Assembly (NCBI GenBank): GCA_963665095.1
Contig: OY762069.1
Coordinates: forward strand, 928,001 to 992,000
Length of the DNA: 64,000 nucleotides
From: an uncultured Desulfobacter sp.
GTDB taxonomy: Bacteria; Desulfobacterota; Desulfobacteria; Desulfobacterales; Desulfobacteraceae
Direction of reading: 5' to 3'
Under the pieces are notes generated by a model. It worked only from the letters and a program-made list of their open reading frames with translations. It did no database searches and had not been told where the DNA came from. Position 1 is the first letter of the stretch. Each line of letters opens with the position of its first letter. The position numbers were made by a program, and so were the translations under genes. Below, one piece after another: positions 454 through 28,557 of this stretch.

Positions 454-2707
454 GTGCGACACGATGTTGCATGATTGTATGTATAGGAGGTAAATGTAAG
501 ACACTGAATATACTCGGTGTATCCCCACCGGTTCCCTAGGTGAGCGTGCTATCGTTGCGCTGATGACGGGGTGCGAAGCCTCACCGACAATGTACCGAAT
601 CGGGTTTGAATGGCGACAGGAGAACCCCTCCGGAAATCCCATCCGGTTAAGGGCTAGGGTCGGACAATATGGCAAGATTAATCGAAGAGCTTTAAGCGCC
701 GTCAGTGAGCGCCTAACCTACTGGGATTAACAGGTTATATGTATACTTCCCTGCGTTTGTATACATGAACAGGATGCAAGTCTTCTAACTGCTTGCACGG
801 GATCTTAAGTTTCATCGGCGTAGAGGCCTGCCTAAGTTGTCCATTAAGAGCAATCATGTGGAACGTGGAAACGTTGTCACTCCCCATGTGCAATACATGG
901 AAAGCTAACCGCAAGGCAAGCCTGTGGAGGGGCAGCAGTAAGAATTCGGAAAAAAGCAAACGCCGTTTTGTAATGAAACGGATAGAGCATGAAACATGGC
1001 TCACGTAAAACCCAAAACCTTCGATTTTGGAGACATGCGTGCAGACGTCCGATTGGTGTTGACTTGCGAGAGAATTTGGAGAACCGCTTAAGATGGGAAA
1101 GCAAATGACGGCTTCGGCTGGTGCACCTGTCGACTCTGCTAAGAAATGGGCATCCATTGTTTGGAACAAAGCCCGGGCTGAAGTTAGAAGGCTGCAAATG
1201 CGTATCGCAAAGGCTGTAAAGGAAGAAAGATGGGGCAAAGTCAAAGCCCTTCAGTACTTACTTACTCATTCGTTCTACGCCAAGGCCTTGGCTGTCAAAC
1301 GAGTGACCTCAAATAAAGGGAAAAAGACTCCAGGCGTAGACGGTGTTTTATGGAAAGGCGCCCGAGCCAAATGGCAGGCTGTTTTCAGCCTGCAAAGACG
1401 AGGTTATAGACCGCAACCGCTAAGGCGGATTTATATCCCCAAAAAAAACGGTAAGAAACGTCCTTTAAGCATTCCAACAATGCTTTGCAGAGCTATGCAG
1501 GCGCTGTTCAAGTTAGCCTTGGCCCCAGTAGCGGAGACCATAGGAGATCGTAATTCTTACGGCTTCCGTGAAGGCCGCAGTTGTGCAGATGCAATTGCAG
1601 CAGCGTTCAATGCACTCTCCAAGCCTAATTCGGCTACATGGATATTGGAAGCGGACATCAAAGGGTGTTATGACAACATCAGTCAGGAATGGATGTTGGA
1701 AAATATCCCCATGGACAAAGTCGTTCTTAAAAAGTGGTTGACGGCAGGGTATGTGGAAGACGGCAAGCTATACCCTTCGCGCAAAGGAACCCCACAGGGC
1801 GGGATTATCAGTCCCACCTTGTCGAATTTAACCCTCGACGGACTGGAAAAAGCCGTTCATGATGCAGTTCCCCGCCGATGCAGGGTTAATTTTGTTCGAT
1901 ATGCAGATGACTTTATCGTCACAGGCAAGTCCAAACGCCTGCTCGAAGAACAGGTCAAACCCGCAGTCGAAGCGTTTCTAACTGAACGTGGTCTATCATT
2001 ATCTGAAGAAAAGACCATGATCACGCATATAACAGACGGATTTACGTTCCTTGGCCAAACTTTTCGAAAAACCGGAAATGTACTGCACATCACCCCGGCA
2101 AAAAAGGGAGTTCTCGCCTTTAAAGAAAAGCTCAGTGAACTGATCCATAAACATGCCGGCGGTCCATTGGAACCATTGGTCAAAAAGTTAAACCAGACCC
2201 TCCGGGGTTGGGGAAACTATCACCGGCACGTAGTCTCATCGGAAACATTTTCTCTTATTGATACGTTTGTTTACGAACAGCTGTGGAGAATGATTAAAAA
2301 GCGTCACCGGAAGAAATCCTCAAAATGGTTGAAAAACCGTTACTGGACTGACGGAAAACACAAGTGGATATTCACTGTCAAGAGCCGAAATAAAAAAGGG
2401 CCTTGCAGATATCACGTCATTCACCTAATTTCACTAGGGATAAAACGATATATCAAAATTAAAGCAGATGCAAATCCATATGATCCCGAATACAGCTATT
2501 ATTTCTGGCGTAGACGGAATCAAAAGGAGTCACGGTTACTCCCTACGCTGTCAGCCAGGGAATACCGCCAAACGCAAGCTGCATGAGGTAAACAGCCGGG
2601 GCGTCCCACAAGGTCGTCCTTTATAAACGCTTGAGCCGTATGACGGGAAACTGTCACGTACGGTTCTTAGGGGGGAAAGGGGCAGAGATGCCCCTGACCT
2701 ACCCGAT
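454..2707 (+). mobile_element. Full-length group II intron (CL/IIB-like) inserted in the attC R' box
   Basis: 5' GTGCGACACG; domain V GAGCCGTATGACGGGAAACTGTCACGTACGGTTC; 3' end ACCCGAT. Removing it restores GTTATAC, the exact complement of this cassette's R'' GTATAAC (4244-4250). Confidence 0.92.
1093..2586 (+). CDS. ltrA: Group II intron reverse transcriptase/maturase with no HNH endonuclease domain
   Basis: RVT_N-like VRRLQMRIAKA, GKKTPGVDG, GTPQGGIISP, YADD and maturase region; ends after NPYDPEY with no Cys/His En motif. Confidence 0.95.
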   Translation: MGKQMTASAGAPVDSAKKWASIVWNKARAEVRRLQMRIAKAVKEERWGKVKALQYLLTHSFYAKALAVKRVTSNKGKKTPGVDGVLWKGARAKWQAVFSLQRRGYRPQPLRRIYIPKKNGKKRPLSIPTMLCRAMQALFKLALAPVAETIGDRNSYGFREGRSCADAIAAAFNALSKPNSATWILEADIKGCYDNISQEWMLENIPMDKVVLKKWLTAGYVEDGKLYPSRKGTPQGGIISPTLSNLTLDGLEKAVHDAVPRRCRVNFVRYADDFIVTGKSKRLLEEQVKPAVEAFLTERGLSLSEEKTMITHITDGFTFLGQTFRKTGNVLHITPAKKGVLAFKEKLSELIHKHAGGPLEPLVKKLNQTLRGWGNYHRHVVSSETFSLIDTFVYEQLWRMIKKRHRKKSSKWLKNRYWTDGKHKWIFTVKSRNKKGPCRYHVIHLISLGIKRYIKIKADANPYDPEYSYYFWRRRNQKESRLLPTLSAREYRQTQAA

Positions 2708-7486: not shown

Positions 7487-8400
7487 CTATAACAAAACGC
7501 TGCTCGTGCCCAGATAAATCCGAATCGTTGGGATTCCACGGAATAGGAGGATGAAACTCGATATTGTTACCCAGTGGGTGAAAGTCCCACATGAGCAAAG
7601 CATAGCCGGCAGCTCATTAGTGAAATCCACAGGCAAAACTGGTAACGGAAGTCTGATGCTGGATGGAACAAGATTGCAGGCTCTGTACTGAGCCCCGAAA
7701 AATGTATAGTTGTGGTCCACTAGGATAAACCCTGCTTGCAGGGGGAAAGCCGACGCATTGTAGCGTGACGGAAGGCAGCAGACTTACAGATGCTATGGCA
7801 AGCCTGTAAGTCACCACCGGGGTCTTCGACCAGGGCATGTTCTCAAAGGGGTAGCTCAGGAACTGGGGAGAGCCGGTTGGTTCCTTGCAGAAACAGAACG
7901 GTATCAGGAGTTCCAGCCATGGGCAAAATCCCGGCATCTGTATGGAAACCCTATCCTGCAGATGAGTTCACCACTGGTGAAGACACAAACGTTAAAGCAG
8001 GGCAATACGCCACGAAAGCCTGGAAGCACTGGCTTGGCCGAAGGCACCGAAACGGTAAACTTAACTTCAAGAAGTTTAGCAGACTTCTTAATTGGTACCC
8101 ATTACCGCGGCCTCGAATTGTTCACAATATCTAAAAGGACCTGCAGGGCAGCAAAGTTATGCGCCGATCAGGGTGTCGCCTGATTGGTTGACGGCTCGGT
8201 AAAAAGAGCCTGAATCGAGGAACCGTATGAGGGAAATCTTCACGTACGGATCTGTGGGGAGGGCGTCGGGTAACCGATGCCTTTACCCGGAAGGCCGACC
8301 CGGGGTTCTATCGGCTTTTCGAAAGTCCTTGGTTTTCGAAAAACCTTGGCTTTTACAATCTGCTCGGCCAAGCCACGGGCGGCTGAACTACACGTTATGT
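7487..8400 (+). other. attC site (~126 nt when reconstituted) split by a class E-like intron
   Basis: R'' CTATAAC (complement of GTTATAG at 6601); body 8292-8400 nearly identical to attC 329-453; R' GTTATGT. Confidence 0.85.
7504..8291 (+). mobile_element. Class E-like group II intron with almost the whole ORF deleted
   Basis: (TC)GTGCCCAGATAAATCC 5' end; domain V GAGGAACCGTATGAGGGAAATCTTCACGTACGG; ends TACCCGGA; residual ORF tail AWKHWL...PLPRPRIVHNI. Confidence 0.85.
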
Positions 8401-8467
8401 GGCCTGAGATCATCAACGTAATTGAATACAAAAGCATGTAAGTAAAAATAAATTTATTGGAGGTATC

Positions 8468-8938
8468 ATGAAAAAAAAACTAACGGTATTTATTTTGATT
8501 CTTTTTACATCAGTAGCATCGGCACAGGATTTTTCATCTCTTTTTCCATTTGAAAAATTTTCGAAGTGGATGAATTCAACTCCTCTTAAGGGTTATCAGG
8601 CGGCTGGTGTAGATGATATGTCTACCGATACATCTGTTTCAGACAGAAAATATCGAGCAATTTTCACTGGTAATCAGGGAATGATTAATGTCCAACTCAG
8701 TCAAGGAAAATTTTTTGATGATTATAAGCACAGCAACGATTTCAAAAATGTAAAGCCTTTTAATAAAAAAGGATTTGAAACAGTATACCTCAGCAAGTCC
8801 CAAATGCCTATGTCTCTTATTAGGGTAAAAATTCCTAAATACAAAGCGACATTCTCGATTATGGCGTCACCCAAAAAAGATAAAAAGACAATGGAAACCT
8901 TACTTGAACAAATAGAACTTTATAGATATATAAAATAA
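8468..8938 (+). CDS. Hypothetical exported protein (cassette gene)
   Basis: Signal peptide MKKKLTVFILILFTSVASA; GGAGG RBS; bounded by GTTATGT/ACATAAC. Confidence 0.8.
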   Translation: MKKKLTVFILILFTSVASAQDFSSLFPFEKFSKWMNSTPLKGYQAAGVDDMSTDTSVSDRKYRAIFTGNQGMINVQLSQGKFFDDYKHSNDFKNVKPFNKKGFETVYLSKSQMPMSLIRVKIPKYKATFSIMASPKKDKKTMETLLEQIELYRYIK

Positions 8939-9005
8939 TTCTCTTATTTTATTATGCAACATCTAAACATATTCTATTATGGAATTTATAAAAAGAGAAC
9001 TTCAC

Positions 9006-9065
9006 ACATAACCATAAAAATCCAGCGGACGCAAAAAGACGCGCCGCTGATTTTTGGCGTTATCA
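9006..9065 (+). other. attC site (short, 60 nt, intact)
   Basis: ACATAAC CATAAAAATCCAGCGGACGC...GCGCCGCTGATTTTTGGC GTTATCA. Confidence 0.9.
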
Positions 9066-9083
9066 TTTAAAACCATCTCCATC

Positions 9084-9120
9084 TTGACTCGAATACGTCA
9101 ATGGCGTATTGCTGTATTAT
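9084..9120 (+). promoter_or_regulatory. Promoter/operator of the toxin-antitoxin cassette
   Basis: TTGACT at 9084; inverted repeat AATACG-N7-CGTATT at 9092-9110; ATG at 9119 with no RBS. Confidence 0.55.
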
Positions 9121-9432
9121 GGAATTCATTGAAACATCAATATTTACAAAGCAAGTCCTGAAGCTACTACCTGACTCAAGTTATCGAATATTGCAATCTA
9201 CTTTGATGTTAAATCCAGGTGCAGGGGCAATGATTAAAGGAAGTGGAGGGATTCGCAAAATTCGTTTGAAGTTACCTGGTTCAGGCAAAGGGGGGCGTTA
9301 CGGGTGATTTATTATTTCGATCAACCTGAAACGATTTACATGCTATTCATGTACAAGAAAAACGAACAAGAAGATTTAACCCCTGAACAAGTCAAAATCT
9401 TGAAAAAAGCATTAAAGGAGAATTTATTATGA
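9119..9432 (+). pseudogene. higB: RelE/HigB2-like toxin with a 1-nt frameshift at a G run (9290-9295)
   Basis: MEFIETSIFTK...GSGGIRKIR...GK, then in the -1 frame GALRVIYYFDQPETIYMLFMYKKNEQEDLT...; stop overlaps the antitoxin ATG (ATGA). Confidence 0.85.
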
Positions 9433-9719
9433 GAAACGAAGATTTTGATATGTTGCTTTCGAGCATAAAAGAAGCTGGCGATATAAAAAGCGGAAAAAAG
9501 AAACCAAGTAGAGTTTTTGAGATTGACCCCCCTGAAATTAAAATGGTTCGAAAAACTTTGAGTGTTTCACAATCGGAATTTGCCATGATGATAGGAGTGA
9601 GCGTAAGAACGCTTCAAAATTGGGAACAAGGAAGAAGGAAACCCGAAGGTCCTGCAAAAGCCTTGTTACGTATTGCCTCGAAAAATCCCAGAGCGGTACT
9701 TGAGGCCCTTCATGTTTGA
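9429..9719 (+). CDS. higA: HigA2-like HTH-XRE antitoxin
   Basis: SQSEFAMMIGVSVRTLQNWEQGRRKPEGPAKALL. Confidence 0.85.
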   Translation: MRNEDFDMLLSSIKEAGDIKSGKKKPSRVFEIDPPEIKMVRKTLSVSQSEFAMMIGVSVRTLQNWEQGRRKPEGPAKALLRIASKNPRAVLEALHV

Positions 9720-9746
9720 TAAAAAATTATGATAACAATACGCTCG

Positions 9747-11512
9747 TCGTGCCCAGATAAATCCGAATCGTTGGGATTCAACCGGACAGGAGGATGAAAT
9801 TCGATAATGTTACCCAGTGGGTGTAAGTCCCACATGAACAAAGCTTAGCCGGCAGTTCATTAGTGAAATCCACAGGCAAAGCCGGAGACGGAGGTCTGAA
9901 GCTGGATGGAACAAGATTGCAGGCTCTGCACTGAGCCCCGAAAAATGTATAGTTGTGGTCCATAAGGATAAACCCTGAAAGTGCGGGGGGAAAGCCGACG
10001 CATTCCAGCGTGACGGAAGGCAGCAGACTTACAGGCGCTATGGCAAGCCTGGGAGTCACCATCGGGGTCTTAGACCAGGGCATGTTCTCAAAGGGGTAGC
10101 TCGGGAACTGGGGAGGTCCGAATGCCTCCTTTTGCAGAAACGGTAAGGTGGATACCGTCCGGAAGGTAAAACACCTGAGGCAGCAGGAATCTCTCACTCC
10201 TGATGCTTGAAAAAGAAAAGTGGGAGGAAAATAAGGTACCGGGGGAGGATAGTTAATAGCGAACGAGCCTGGGAAGGACATTCGGAAGTCTTAGCTGATC
10301 ATAATACTGATGTTCAGGGGGGAATAAAACCCGAACGGCAAGGCGGGGAAGTGGTGCCCGAAGCGACCCGCTGAAGGAAAGGAGAGGCAGGGTATAACGT
10401 TTTTCCGGCAGGAACTATGGGAGACTCCCAGAGGTCACAAACCATATCAACGGACAGCCGGGAAATTGCGTCGCAGACAGCTATGAAATCCAAGGGAAAC
10501 ACAAAAGAACGGATAGCCGAACCTCTACCGATACTGGTGCCGGAGTCGTCGCTTGTCCATATCAGGACAATGGCAAAACAGGACCTACAGATGACGTTTA
10601 CATCTCTGGTCCACAAAGTTGACCTGTTCCTGCTGAATAAATCGTTTCGACAGTTGTGTAAAAACAGTGCCACCGGAGTAGACAAGGTCACGGTGGACAA
10701 GGGACCCCCCAGGGTGGAGTGATTTCGCCGGTACTCAGTAATATATTCCTGCACTATGTGCTGGACGACTGGTTTGCAAAAGTGGTTCAACCCCGGTTGA
10801 AGGGTAAAAGCTTTCTGATCAGGTTTGCCGATGACTTCATCGTCGGACTGCAGCTGGAATCAGATGCCAAAAGATTGTTGGAAGTTTTGCCAAGGCGGTT
10901 CAACCGCTACACTCTTGAACTTCATCCGAAAAAGACACGCCTGATTGCATTCGGAAAACCGGCCCGGAAGGGAAAGCCACAGGGGACGTTCGATTTCCTC
11001 GGGTTCACGTATTACTGGGGCAAAAGCCTTAAAGGCTACTGGGTGATCAAGAAGAAAACCACCCGCAAAAGGCGCAATCGGTTCATGCGGATGCTGTGGA
11101 GCTGGTGCAAGAAGCACAGGCATGACCCTATACGCGGTCAGCAGGAAACCTTGTGCAGCAAGTTGATGGGATTTTATCAATATTTCGGAGTACGGAGCAA
11201 TTTTAAGGTGCTGGAGGAGGTGTACGAATATGCTGCCACAGCCTGGAAACATTGGCTTGGCCAAAGGCATAGGAACGGGATATTGAACTACAAAAAGTTC
11301 AGCAGACTTCTAACCGGACATCCCCTGCCCAGGCCCCGGATTGTTCACAATATCTGAAAGGCTGCAAGGGCAGCAAAGTTATGCGCCAATCGGGGTGTCG
11401 CCTGATTGGTCGATGGCCCGGTAAAAGGGCCGGAGTCGAGGAACCGTACGAGGGAAATCTTCACGTACGGGTCTGTGGGGAGGGCGTCGGGTAACCGATG
11501 CCTTTACCCGGA
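9747..11512 (+). mobile_element. Class E-like group II intron with an internally deleted RT ORF
   Basis: Same termini as 7504-8291; domain V GAGGAACCGTACGAGGGAAATCTTCACGTACGG. Confidence 0.87.
10417..11357 (+). pseudogene. ltrA: Group II intron RT/maturase with central RT subdomains deleted, out of frame
   Basis: KNSATGVDKVT is joined directly to the (GTPQGG)VISPVLSNIFLHYVLD...RFADDF...FDFLGF segment. Confidence 0.88.
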
Positions 11513-11656
11513 AGAGGGGCCAGGCTTACTGCGCGGCCTTTCTAAAGTCCCTGGTTCAGGAAGATTAAACTTTTTATCGGAAGTTTTGGGGTTTAAAAAG
11601 CCTGGCCCCTCAAGTCCTCGTTATGCACCTACAAATCGAAACGAAAGAACATCATT

Positions 11657-14206: not shown

Positions 14207-15211
14207 GTGCGACACGAGGTCGCATTATTGGCTGTTTGGCGGGCCAGTCGGTCCTGACCAAACCCGGCATTCTCCTGCCGGTACCCTATGTGGCATGCGG
14301 TTACCGGTGCATCCGGCAACGGTGTGAAGCCCAACCGACAAAGTACCGAATTCCGCAGGTGCGGAAGGGGTGGAAGCCGTGAGGCGGATACCCTCCTGGA
14401 AGCCTCATTCCGGGTGAGGGCAAGGGTTTGAATGATATGGTCAAATTAATTGAATGTTCCGTAAGTACCGTCAGGGAGAACAAGCTAAAGAGGCTGGTAA
14501 CCTTGGACCAAAAGGTGAGCGGTCAGGTTGCAGGTTTCTTAGCTGCCTGCACGTAGATGTTGCGCCGCCGGTGCTTAAGGACAGGCCTAAGTCATCCATT
14601 AATTGGCAATAATGTGGAACGTGGAAAGTCGGCCATGTCCCTATGGATAAGATGATCCTCACCAAATGTCTGGCTGCAGGGTTTATGGAAAATGGTAAGC
14701 TCTTTCCAACAGGTCGGGGGACACCCCAGGGAGGCATTGCCTCCCCGATACTTGCCAACATGGTTCTGGACGGCATTGAAGAAACTGCTAAATCCGTTGC
14801 ACCTGTCAGAGACCGGCGTAACGGTAAGGACATCAGTTCTAAAATCAACGTTGTCCGGTACACTGATGACTTCATCGTTACCGGTGCCACCCGGGAACTT
14901 CTTGAAGATAAGGTCAAACCGGCAATAATCAGCTTTCTTTCGGAACGGGATCTTTCCCTGTGATGCCAATCCTTTTGATCCGGAACACCAACAATACTTC
15001 CGGACAAGACGTGTGAAACCTAAGATGATCCCAGTCACAGCTGCCGAGGAAATATGTGATGGAATAACTGTAAATTTCAGTATTGGCAAGGGAAAACAGT
15101 CGGGCGGCCCCGCAAGGCTTAGTCTTAGAAATGCTTGAGCCGTATGACGGGAAACTGTCATGTACGGTTCTGAGGGGGGAAAGGAACTGTAAAGTTCCTG
15201 ACCTACCCGAT
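14207..15211 (+). mobile_element. CL/IIB-like group II intron, internally deleted; RT fragment at 14643-14963
   Basis: GTGCGACACG...domain V GAGCCGTATGACGGGAAACTGTCATGTACGGTTC...ACCCGAT; fragment has GTPQGGIASP and YTDD. Confidence 0.88.
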
Positions 15212-15955: not shown

Positions 15956-16708
15956 GCACAATAGGGGCAGGACTCCCCATTACTGAGGAGCCCTCCCACA
16001 CCATCCGGCATACGGATCTCGTACCAAGGCGGTTCGGCTGGTATGAATAAAATCAGTTGTAGGTTATCCCACCGATTTTATCGGGTTTTGGGCAAAGTCT
16101 TGCTATGGAAATTTCGGCCACTGCCGCATTATTCCCATAAAATCCTTTTACTTACTCACCACAACCATTTACCCAAGCCATTCGGCCCGGGTACCGTTCA
16201 GGCCTTCATCGGGGTGAGGCCTCCGGGTGTACTTCTCCCATGCGGTCAGGACCAGTTACCCGGCCCTCAGCCAATCCGGCACATGGGAGATCTCCCGGGG
16301 TAAACACGTGTCTTTCAGTACGTGAATGCCGGATTTACGGACATACCCTGTAATGGATAGAGGACTTCACCTTGTTGTGCAGGCTCGTCCAGGTATGTGC
16401 GCCTTATATCCGATTCCTGTACGTCATCCCGTACCTTCGTGGTACCTTGCCTCAGCAAGGCGGCTTCCTCCCGAAGCACCGTCACCGGTACCCCGTTGCA
16501 CTACCACTACACCCTTCGCCTCCATCCGGCTGGGTCTAAGACTTGCCAAAGGCATTGAAATCGTTTACGTTTGACTCACTTTTAAGAACACGTGCCGTGC
16601 CCGGCACACACAAAACGCTTCAGGTCGAAAGACCTTGGTTTCTGAAAAGAATTTAATTCGGGGAAGTCCTTGGTTTTAGTCTCCGGGCGGCTGAGCTCCC
16701 CGTTCTCG
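15956..16708 (+). other. attC site (~104 nt when reconstituted); R'' split by a IIC intron and R' followed by a CL intron
   Basis: GCACA|intron|ACAAAACGCTTCAG...GGGCGGCTGAGCTCCCC GTTCTCG. Confidence 0.75.
15961..16609 (-). mobile_element. ORF-less group IIC-attC intron (649 nt)
   Basis: Bottom strand starts GTGTGCCGGGCACGG; domain V GAACCGCCTTGGTACGAGATCCGTATGCCGG (CGC triad); ends CCCTAT; target TTGT/T. Confidence 0.88.
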
Positions 16709-24380: not shown

Positions 24381-24620
24381 CAAAGCCGAGGCCGGTCTAC
24401 ATGCATCTGGAGGCCGGCCCTTTAATCGCCTACATTTTTAAACCGGGAGATTTATGACATGTTCACGCCCCGCCTGACAATTATTGCTGAAACAACCGGA
24501 CGGCCCCGCAAGGCTTAGTCTTAGAAATGCTTGAGCCGTATGACGGGAAACTGTCACGTACGGTTCTGAGGGGGCCTGGGGTAGATAACTACCCCCGGCT
24601 ACCCGATCCTAAAAACACCA

Positions 24621-27816: not shown

Positions 27817-28383
27817 AAAGGTGCGGTTGATACACCGCTTACCATTATTCCCATAAAATCCTTCTACTTACTCACCACAACCATTTACCCAAGCCATTCG
27901 GCCCGGGTACCGTTCAGGCCTTCATCGGGGTGAGGCCTCCGGGTGTACTTCTCCCATGCCAGGGAGGCCCGGCTCGTTTCCTCCGACTACTATGCCCTCT
28001 GCTGACTTCTCCCATGCGGTCAGGACCAGTTACCCGGCCCTCAGCCAATCCGGCACATGGGAGATCTCCCGGGGTAAACACGTGTCTTTCAGTACGTGAA
28101 TGCCGGATTTACGGACATACCCTGTAATGGATAGAGGACTTCACCTTGTTGTGCAGGCTCGTCCCGGTATGTGCGCCTTATATCCGATTCCTGTACGTCA
28201 CCCCGTACCTTCGTGGTACCTTGCCTCAGCAAGGCGGCTTCCTCCCGAAGCACCGTCACCGATACCCCGTTGCACTACCACTACGCCCTTCGCCTCCATC
28301 CGGCTGGGCCTAAGACTTGTCAAATGCTTTAAAATTCATTACATTTGACTCACTTTTAAGCTCACGTGCCGTGCCCGGCACAC

Positions 28384-28508
28384 ACAAATCGCTGGAGAGG
28401 GACCAGGCTTACTGCGCGGCCTTTCGGGAGGGCCTGGTTCAGGAAATTTTATCTTTTTATCGGGAGTTTTTGGGTTTAAAAGCCTGGCCCCTCAGCTCCC
28501 CGTTAACT
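28384..28508 (+). other. attC body (R'' begins at 25234; ~130 nt when reconstituted)
   Basis: ACAAATCGCTGGAGAGGGACCAGGC...GCCTGGCCCCTCAGCTCCCC GTTAACT. Confidence 0.85.
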
Positions 28509-28557
28509 CCCCTAAAAAAAACTTGCTCCCAAATCGGAAACGTCTTATATTGATTTT

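What the first reader, a model, noticed from the sequence alone, without database searches (positions are those of the whole stretch)
7504..11512. Class E-like introns with atypical ends: extra 5' TC before GTGCC, 3' GGA, and a candidate EBS1 that tracks the attC target
Seen in sequence: comparison with the attC lacking this intron at 28384 (AAC+10 nt+AGAGGGACC) shows both inserts run TCGTGCCCAG...TACCCGGA. That is two nucleotides 5' of the GUGYG-like motif and no terminal AY. A loop at the EBS1-like position reads GTAGCG (7760-7765) in the copy whose 5' exon ends CGCTGC. It reads CCAGCG (10005-10010) in the copy whose exon ends CGCTCG; the sister attC has CGCTGG. The pairing stops just before the TC. 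Inference: the splice sites are shifted or non-canonical, and the intron retargets between attC variants.
Basis: partly seen in the sequence, partly recalled or inferred. Interest (0 to 1): 0.72.

Follow-up and report, generated by a model that had tools for sequence, protein, structure and literature searches.

The report
Core-swapped introns homing into integron attC
Two broken copies of a mobile, self-splicing-type intron sit at the same spot of two integron recombination (attC) sites; their lineage carries changed first, last and catalytic-core letters that come in matched, likely compensating pairs, and it likely picks its insertion spot by base pairing.

Summary
The inserts are 7504-8291 and 9747-11512, TCGTG…ACCCGGA. 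Empty attC alleles lack the TC. The TC is not extra: UCGUG is the 5′ pentamer itself, in register with GUGYG, so the splice sites are not shifted.

Across about 80 homologues the lineage, which groups with class E, shows matched swaps: U1 with penultimate G; γ U with terminal A (G–C in rhizobial kin); catalytic triad AAC with J2/3 UUA. The U1…G swap has a precedent in mobile TeI3c. I found the AAC triad in no reference alignment or paper searched; the equivalent G359A kills the O. iheyensis intron.

EBS1 pairs with the exon only in the register ending just before TC (5.33 of 6, against 3.02 shuffled), so retargeting is supported. A covarying EBS2 lies opposite the attC R″ core. 30 of 45 distinct exons have AAC exactly 10 nt upstream, on the cassette-sense strand.

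Both window copies are degenerate and no splicing was shown. The scan noted the core swaps before on other DNA (e1-6757030, e1-3537294). Verdict: new variant of class E; interest 0.55.

The parts
7490..7503 (+). 5′ part of attC 1: R″ core TAAC plus 10 nt; IBS1 CGCTGC at 7498-7503
   Evidence: empty allele C1:6559981(-)
7504..8291 (+). Intron copy 1 (788 nt). Domain I and DV/DVI are present; J2/3, domain III and most of the ORF are deleted, so it is a dead remnant
   Evidence: nt 1-391 and 501-788 align to full-length L007; no J2/3 motif
7504..7508 (+). 5′ pentamer UCGUG, equal to GUGYG positions 1-5
7701..7705 (+). EBS2 AAUGU (3 of 5 pairs with exon -12..-8, over the R″ core)
7760..7765 (+). 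EBS1 GUAGCG (6 of 6 pairs with CGCTGC, one G-U)
7825..7825 (+). EBS3 U, opposite 3′ exon A8292
8221..8223 (+). Catalytic triad AAC in domain V
8285..8285 (+). Bulged branch A in domain VI, at -7 from the end
8292..8400 (+). 3′ part of attC 1, ending in R′ GTTATGT (8394-8400)
9733..9746 (+). 5′ part of attC 2; IBS1 CGCTCG at 9741-9746
9747..11512 (+). Intron copy 2 (1766 nt). All RNA domains are present; a deletion of about 457 nt lies inside the RT ORF near 10694
9944..9948 (+). EBS2 AAUGU (4 of 5 pairs with ACAAT)
10005..10010 (+). EBS1 CCAGCG (5 of 6 with CGCTCG; 6 of 6 with CGCTGG in five close relatives)
10070..10070 (+). EBS3 U, opposite 3′ exon A11513
10291..10293 (+). J2/3 UUA: first U is γ (predicted to pair with terminal A11512); second U sits at the triple-helix position
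10417..11357 (+). Broken RT/maturase ORF (pieces 10417-10722 and 10719-11357); intact homologue is 465 aa with no endonuclease domain found
11442..11444 (+). Catalytic triad AAC
11506..11506 (+). Bulged branch A at -7
11513..11626 (+). 3′ part of attC 2, ending in R′ GTTATGC (11620-11626)
28384..28510 (+). Sister attC without this intron (CGCTGG|AGAGGGACC); its R″ is split by a IIC-type intron on the minus strand

Best explanation
These are two degenerate copies of a group II intron sublineage that groups with class E, inserted in the cassette-sense strand of attC sites 10 nt after the R″ AAC, whose ends (UCGUG…GGA) lie in the canonical register and whose changed letters likely compensate each other: U1 with penultimate G, γ-U with terminal A, and triad AAC with J2/3 UUA. 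Intact members are predicted to splice at exactly these ends (the bulged A at -7 would allow a lariat; hydrolysis is also possible, as in tested class E introns) and to reverse-splice into the attC top strand. The variable EBS1 pairs with the six bases before the site and EBS3 with the first base after it. A nearly fixed EBS2 (AAUGU) likely touches the conserved R″ core, which would explain the constant distance. Insertion would split the attC hairpin and so likely block excision of that cassette. Shown: boundaries, register, covariation, degeneration. Inferred: splicing, the chemistry of the compensations, the role of EBS2, the effect on cassettes.
For: Empty alleles without TC. One 2144-nt intron with 0-1 differences among 8 contigs sits in 6 different 5′ exons, constant from TCGTG to CCGGA. 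Tandem junctions GGA|TCG(T/C)G in L011, L080 and L113. Register test. Of 47 homologous 5′ ends 41 are TCGTG, 3 TTGCG, 2 TCGCG, 1 TTGTG; 47 of 61 rows gave a triad, all AAC; 47 of 61 gave a J2/3, all TTA. Tree neighbours separate the swaps: L131 GTGCG/AGC/GGA/…GAC and L012 GTGTG/AGC/AGA/…AAT; L123 TTGCG/AAC/TTA/…GGA; L122, L124, L132, L133 TTGCG/AAC/GTA/…GGC; L028, a separate branch, GTGCG/AAC/TCA/…GAA. Reference Th.e.I3 is TTGCG…CCCGGC while its relative Th.e.I7 is GTGCG…CCCGAC, and TeI3c is mobile (PMC2882425, passages). A blind scan of 4550 exon/intron windows ranks the EBS1 and EBS2 diagonals on top; L148, outside that set, pairs 6 of 6 at EBS2 (read by eye). 68 of 69 full-length metagenome ORFs have no stop. 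An integron integrase lies 17 kb upstream of the window.
Against: No splicing product was seen: the RNA-run contigs showed no exon-ligation or circle joint (contigs only). G359A almost abolishes O. iheyensis intron activity (PMC3669008) and penultimate G impairs step 2 of RmInt1, which has G1 (PMC4238363), so the compensation is inferred from covariation with few independent origins. In attC members EBS2 makes only 2-4 of 5 pairs. EBS3 fits 45 of 47 rows; L086 has U against C and L064 was mis-read by the pattern. L128 has γ U with an end that reads …GAT. L141 has J2/3 TTC; L142, L152 and L157 have altered pentamers. One TCGGA scar. Metagenome contigs may join flanks of different copies (L043 and L044 share a 5′ exon but not a 3′ exon). 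The tree is the quick search with one row per outside class.
Confidence: 0.85

Rival explanations
1. One reading: GTGCC is the GUGYG motif and TC is a 5′ extension with a shifted splice site, as in C.te.I1 or fungal IIB1 introns.
For: TC does belong to the insert and lies 3′ of IBS1. Shifted 5′ sites are known (PMC4024640 and PMC4424553, passages).
Against: GTGCC lacks G5 and its CC sits in the domain I basal stem. TCGTG aligns letter for letter with GTGCG of references and kin. The branch A is kept, unlike in shifted-site introns.
Confidence: 0.04
2. The RNA intron is shorter (GTG…CCC) and TC and GGA stay in the exons or are added on insertion.
For: One allele reads CGCTGC-TCGGA-AGGCC.
Against: It would put the branch A at -4 and break the γ-γ′ covariation. 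A deletion between the CG at both ends gives the same scar. It is a single case.
Confidence: 0.03
3. The intron ends at GGAA and the last A is not exon.
For: 45 of 47 ends are followed by A.
Against: Empty sites need that A. Ends followed by C (L086, L102, L105) or T (tandems) exist. L105 has EBS3 G opposite C.
Confidence: 0.04
4. Same anatomy, but the fixed distance from R″ comes from the protein or the attC DNA hairpin rather than EBS2, and the AAC ribozyme is weak without its protein or splices only by hydrolysis.
For: EBS2 pairing is only 2-4 of 5 in attC members. EBS2-IBS2 played no role in self-splicing of class E and F introns and class E spliced only by hydrolysis in vitro (PMC3753933, parts 1-3 read).
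Against: EBS2 changes with the exon in members that left attC (L108, L093, L119, L148) and in L088 and L116.
Confidence: 0.3

Closest known systems
[quoted passage not shown] Kl.pn.I5, Co.ca.I1, Br.j.I2, Cl.be.I2; Nagy 2013 PMC3753933; Waldern 2020 PMC7306698 end alignments)
   Same: RT/maturase groups with class E anchors; IIB-type EBS1/2/3; 5′ sequence in register; non-G starts AAGCG and TAGCG and an AA end are already annotated.
   Different: None of 21 reference 5′ ends starts UYGYG; none of 18 reference 3′ ends has AAC or ends GGA/GGC.
TeI3c (Th.e.I3) of Thermosynechococcus elongatus, class CL1 (Mohr 2010 PMC2882425); UHB.I2 (UUGCG…GU; Sonbol and Siam 2021 PMC7923331)
   Same: U1 with penultimate G, annotated in register; TeI3c is mobile. 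UHB.I2 is sense-oriented in an integron.
   Different: Different protein class; AGC triad; pyrimidine last base; UHB.I2 sits right after an attC, not inside its L″ arm.
Group IIC-attC introns (as described in PMC7923331)
   Same: Target attC sites of integron arrays; they co-occur here, even in the same attC (C1:1625525).
   Different: Bottom strand, opposite orientation, at TTGT/T in R″, short EBS1 and no EBS2; this lineage uses the top strand 10 nt further on with a variable 6-nt EBS1.
Shifted-5′-site introns C.te.I1 and fungal IIB1 rRNA introns (PMC4024640, PMC4424553)
   Same: Splice site defined by EBS1-IBS1.
   Different: They have a real spacer before GUGYG and lost the branch A and EBS2; here there is no spacer and both are kept.

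Membership tests
Group II intron | Domains I-IV, V and VI with bulged branch A | tested here: met
   Rfam RF02005 at 7581-7832 and 9824-10077, RF00029 at 8218-8292; DV/DVI fold with bulged A at both copies, z about -4.3. RF00029 did not reach gathering score at copy 2.
Group II intron | RT/maturase ORF in domain IV | tested here: met
   Intact homologue L007 scores 320.8 over cut-off 300 for TIGR04416; window copies are deleted.
Group II intron | Consensus GUGYG…AY ends and AGC/CGC triad | tested here: not met
   UYGYG…GA and AAC in 47 of 47 scored rows; register canonical.
Group II intron | Self-splicing and retrohoming | not testable with these tools
   Indirect only: near-identical intron in 6 different 5′ exons; no junction in RNA contigs.
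Bacterial class E | Protein groups with class E | tested here: met
   52-row group, SH-aLRT 99, holds L124 (class E in Miura 2022 Table 3), L120 (92.5% to an intron listed as E) and Kl.pn.I5-like L130, and excludes the D, F and C anchors (quick tree, long outside branches, classes A, B and ML not included).
Bacterial class E | No endonuclease domain | tested here: met
   465 aa, only RVT_1 in Pfam.
Bacterial class E | 5-nt DV loop | tested here: inconclusive
   Centroid gives a 5-nt loop, minimum-energy fold a 4-nt loop.
Bacterial class E | α′ at the end of a stem-loop and extra bulge in DId3 | not tested
   A stem-loop lies before the EBS1 hairpin but the α-α′ pairing was not mapped.
Group IIC-attC | Class C protein; bottom-strand insertion at TTGT/T | tested here: not met
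   Top strand, AAC+10 nt; protein apart from the class C anchor.
Shifted-5′-site introns | Spacer between IBS1 and GUGYG; loss of branch A | tested here: not met

The most novel reading that the evidence does not exclude
A widespread, actively mobile class E sublineage runs its catalytic triple helix with A in place of the supposedly invariant triad G, rescued by a G-to-U change in J2/3, has rewired both intron ends, and is an undescribed attC-homing intron type that anchors on the R″ core with a fixed EBS2 while a variable EBS1 follows each attC variant, thereby locking cassettes in place.
Probability: 0.5. Interest if true: 0.72.

Novelty: new variant of a known kind. Interest (0 to 1): 0.55.

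Why it matters
The middle G of the triad is described as invariant and G-to-A is used to inactivate a model intron (PMC3669008). A natural lineage with AAC plus a matched J2/3 change, and sister introns with every intermediate combination, makes the triple-helix, first/penultimate and γ-γ′ contacts testable by simple swaps, with bearing on the matching U6 contacts of the spliceosome. Pipelines built on GUGYG…AY will misplace these ends. It also adds a sense-strand route by which introns colonise and likely disable attC sites.

Tried and rejected
5′ extension, GGAA end and TC-in-exon readings: rejected (see rivals). A canonical U·A-U triple: dropped, because the base facing the triad A in domain V is A or G, not U; only a U·A contact is proposed. 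Pairing of U1-C2 with the terminal GA: not general, since rhizobial kin end GC. Folding the EBS1 hairpin alone or the empty attCs gave no signal over shuffles; attC identity rests on R″/R′ cores and arm complementarity. Viral contigs: no relative. RNA runs held only 5-12% of words and only as contigs; no ligation or circle joint was listed, which is no evidence either way; depth differences were not used. Paper searches found no description of an AAC-triad or UCGUG…GGA lineage, nor of class E introns inside the attC L″ arm; one search returned only unrelated sequence matches. Not seen: Abebe 2013 Fig. S1 with class boundary consensus (.doc), Simon 2008 (not held), Toro 2002 and the Zimmerly database itself; these may already hold such ends. 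Rows dropped: 14 of 61 before the register test (9 missing a part, 2 tandem, 2 outgroup, plus L049; listed); three 5′ ends (L091, L092, L119) were set by hand; L098 scores 1 of 6 because its loop is offset by one base and was kept.
Full report
Setting. The window lies in a chromosomal integron array: an integron integrase over the family cut-off sits at C1:910169-911113, 17 kb before the window, and the window carries cassette-like ORFs and several group II introns. The two inserts match Rfam domain I-IV model RF02005.

Boundaries. Copy 1 is 7504-8291 and copy 2 is 9747-11512. All 12 5′ ends matching the 22-nt probe in the own genome and 8 named genome loci show TC before GT and 10 nt of exon after AAC or a IIC-split remnant of it. 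Eleven family attC sites in the own genome read …TGC|AG, …TGG|AG or …TCC|AG with no TC, one with the same 3′ exon as copy 1. DNA contigs of an independent run join AACAAAACGCTGG directly to 11513. One intron of 2144 nt, with 0-1 differences among 8 metagenome contigs, sits behind 6 different 5′ exons and is constant from TCGTG to CCGGA. Three loci have a second intron directly behind the first, GGA|TCG(T/C)G. One allele carries a TCGGA scar, best explained by a deletion between the CG at both ends (inference).

The TC is not an extension. The class E reference alignment (Waldern 2020, PMC7306698, supplement parts 1 and 8 read, rest searched) has 18 of 21 starts GTGCG and three AAGCG or TAGCG; Co.ca.I1 reads GTGCG CCCAGATAA against TCGTG CCCAGATAA here. 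In a six-row alignment of variant and canonical kin G3 and G5 are invariant (I cut five of the six windows in register beforehand). The basal stem of domain I starts at nt 6 with compensatory changes. At the 3′ end the bulged A is at -7, as in kin ending ACTCGAC. So the splice sites are in the usual places and the terminal letters are changed.

Matched swaps. In 80 metagenome loci plus genome loci, 61 rows had a scorable domain I end; 47 gave a triad, all AAC, 47 a J2/3, all TTA, and 47 an end, TACCCGGA or TACCTGGA (the end pattern required GG, but the unconstrained list shows the same). Relatives separate the changes. L131 and L012 are canonical: G1, AGC, GGA or AGA, ends AC or AT. L123 is TTGCG, AAC, TTA, GGA. 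L122, L124, L132 and L133 are TTGCG, AAC, GTA, GGC. L028, on another branch, is GTGCG, AAC, TCA, GAA. Thus U1 goes with penultimate G, the first J2/3 base pairs with the last base (G-C, A-U, U-A), and triad A goes with a pyrimidine in the middle of J2/3. These three contacts are established (PMC3669008 and PMC4238363, passages). Exceptions: L128 and L141. Independent origins are few, so compensation is an inference. The U1/penultimate-G swap is in print data already: Th.e.I3 TTGCG…CCCGGC beside Th.e.I7 GTGCG…CCCGAC, and TeI3c is mobile (PMC2882425, passages). String searches for an AAC-type domain V start or GGA/GGC ends of this type found none in the reference end alignments of nine classes (alignment gaps could hide a case).

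Targeting. EBS1 pairs 5.33 of 6 with the exon in 33 distinct hairpins, against 3.02 shuffled, 0 of 2000; the register before GTG is at chance. Among close relatives CCAGCG goes with CGCTGG in five loci and GTGGCG or GTAGCG with CGCTGC; copy 2 (CGCTCG, 5 of 6) and L138 (4 of 6) are imperfect. A blind scan of 4550 window pairs over 38 introns ranks EBS1 first (z 10.7) and a second diagonal at 9944-9948 against exon -12..-8 (z about 7); kin are not independent, so z is descriptive. This EBS2 is AAUGU in 22 of 25 members with AAC at -13, where it makes only 2-4 of 5 pairs, and changes with the exon elsewhere. EBS3 is U opposite A in 44 of 47 rows and G opposite C in L105. Of 45 distinct 5′ exons 30 have AAC at -13 and 8 at -14; many of those with a 3′ flank show a complementary arm and GTT downstream, while some members sit in short tandem repeats instead. 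Insertion is on the cassette-sense strand, inside the L″ arm.

Class. A quick maximum-likelihood tree of 56 rows places the lineage (22 rows, support 99) with class E anchors and apart from single D, F and C anchors. L124 is listed as class E by Miura 2022 (PMC8919778, passages and Table 3 rows); their profile placed its 5′ end about 40 nt inside the intron.

State of the window copies. Copy 1 lacks J2/3, domain III and most of the ORF; copy 2 has a 457-nt ORF deletion, confirmed by relatives' contigs with about 460 extra letters there. The protein search found no full-length match in the own genome. The lineage at large looks active: 68 of 69 full-length ORFs are open.

Literature. Sonbol and Siam 2021 (PMC7923331, part 1 of 7 and passages) report class E fragments without 5′ ends in an attC cluster and a CL1 intron after an attC. 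Nagy 2013 (PMC3753933, parts 1-3 of 7 and passages) shows class E splicing by hydrolysis at predicted junctions. Also seen: PMC3552965 (parts 1-2 of 4), PMC4424553, PMC4024640, PMC5894124, PMC4028801, PMC4801052 and PMC3001079 (passages only). Ten searches found no description of this lineage. The library lacks most subscription papers, and Abebe 2013 Fig. S1, Simon 2008, Toro 2002 and the intron database were not seen. The attC box names (R″, L″, R′) follow PMC7923331; the position of EBS3 after the GGGGUC stem is recalled and then checked by covariation.

Earlier scan notes. I had formed the register and swap reading (note) before looking. e1-6757030 reports the same two compensating pairs on other DNA; e1-3537294 reports an AAC triad, and a check of that claim on other DNA is marked in doubt, for reasons I could not see. 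e1-8164268, e1-4224790 and e1-8290769 describe other sense-strand attC introns.

Verdict. Observation confirmed, interpretation partly supported. New variant of class E group II introns with a swapped core and a sense-strand attC habit; untested biochemically; window copies broken. Interest 0.55.

Noticed in passing
G000:C1:~2928828 (-): attC with a 5-nt scar TCGGA at the insertion point, probably left by deletion of the intron body between CG at both ends; the same attC also holds a IIC-type intron in R″.
   Followed up: partly
window 454-2707, 14207-15211, 16709 onward, 24531-24607: A second sense-strand intron lineage starting GTGCGACACG just after the attC R′ core, and IIC-type introns on the minus strand (16304-16491, 28078-28265): three intron lineages share one array at three attC positions.
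   Followed up: no
L011:2642, L080:103, L113:2375: Head-to-tail tandem introns; in L113 both carry EBS1 TGATGC matching the same exon, consistent with re-insertion into an occupied site.
   Followed up: partly
L062, L067, L068, L070, L075-L077, L119: A subgroup targets short tandem repeats (AACATCGAACGTCG-like) instead of attC, with matching EBS1 and EBS2 changes.
   Followed up: partly
L028, L029: Separate class E branch with AAC triad and AA end; L028 has J2/3 UCA and canonical G1, an apparently independent origin of the triad change.
   Followed up: partly
L091, L092, L127: AAC-type domain V interrupted by another intron starting GTGTGTCCAG at the same spot (after CGGGT).
   Followed up: no
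L040-L119: RT active-site motif varies among 69 full-length ORFs: YADD 39, WADD 17, FADD 11, other 2.
   Followed up: no
L006, L145, L149, L157, L162: Short ORF-less derivatives of 909-990 nt keep J2/3, DV and DVI and may be mobilised in trans.
   Followed up: no
G000 copies at C1:935504, 937747, 1625525, 3917698, 5173627, 6279064: 5 of 6 copies lie on the locally G-rich strand, which fits endonuclease-free homing at the fork but may only follow attC orientation.
   Followed up: partly
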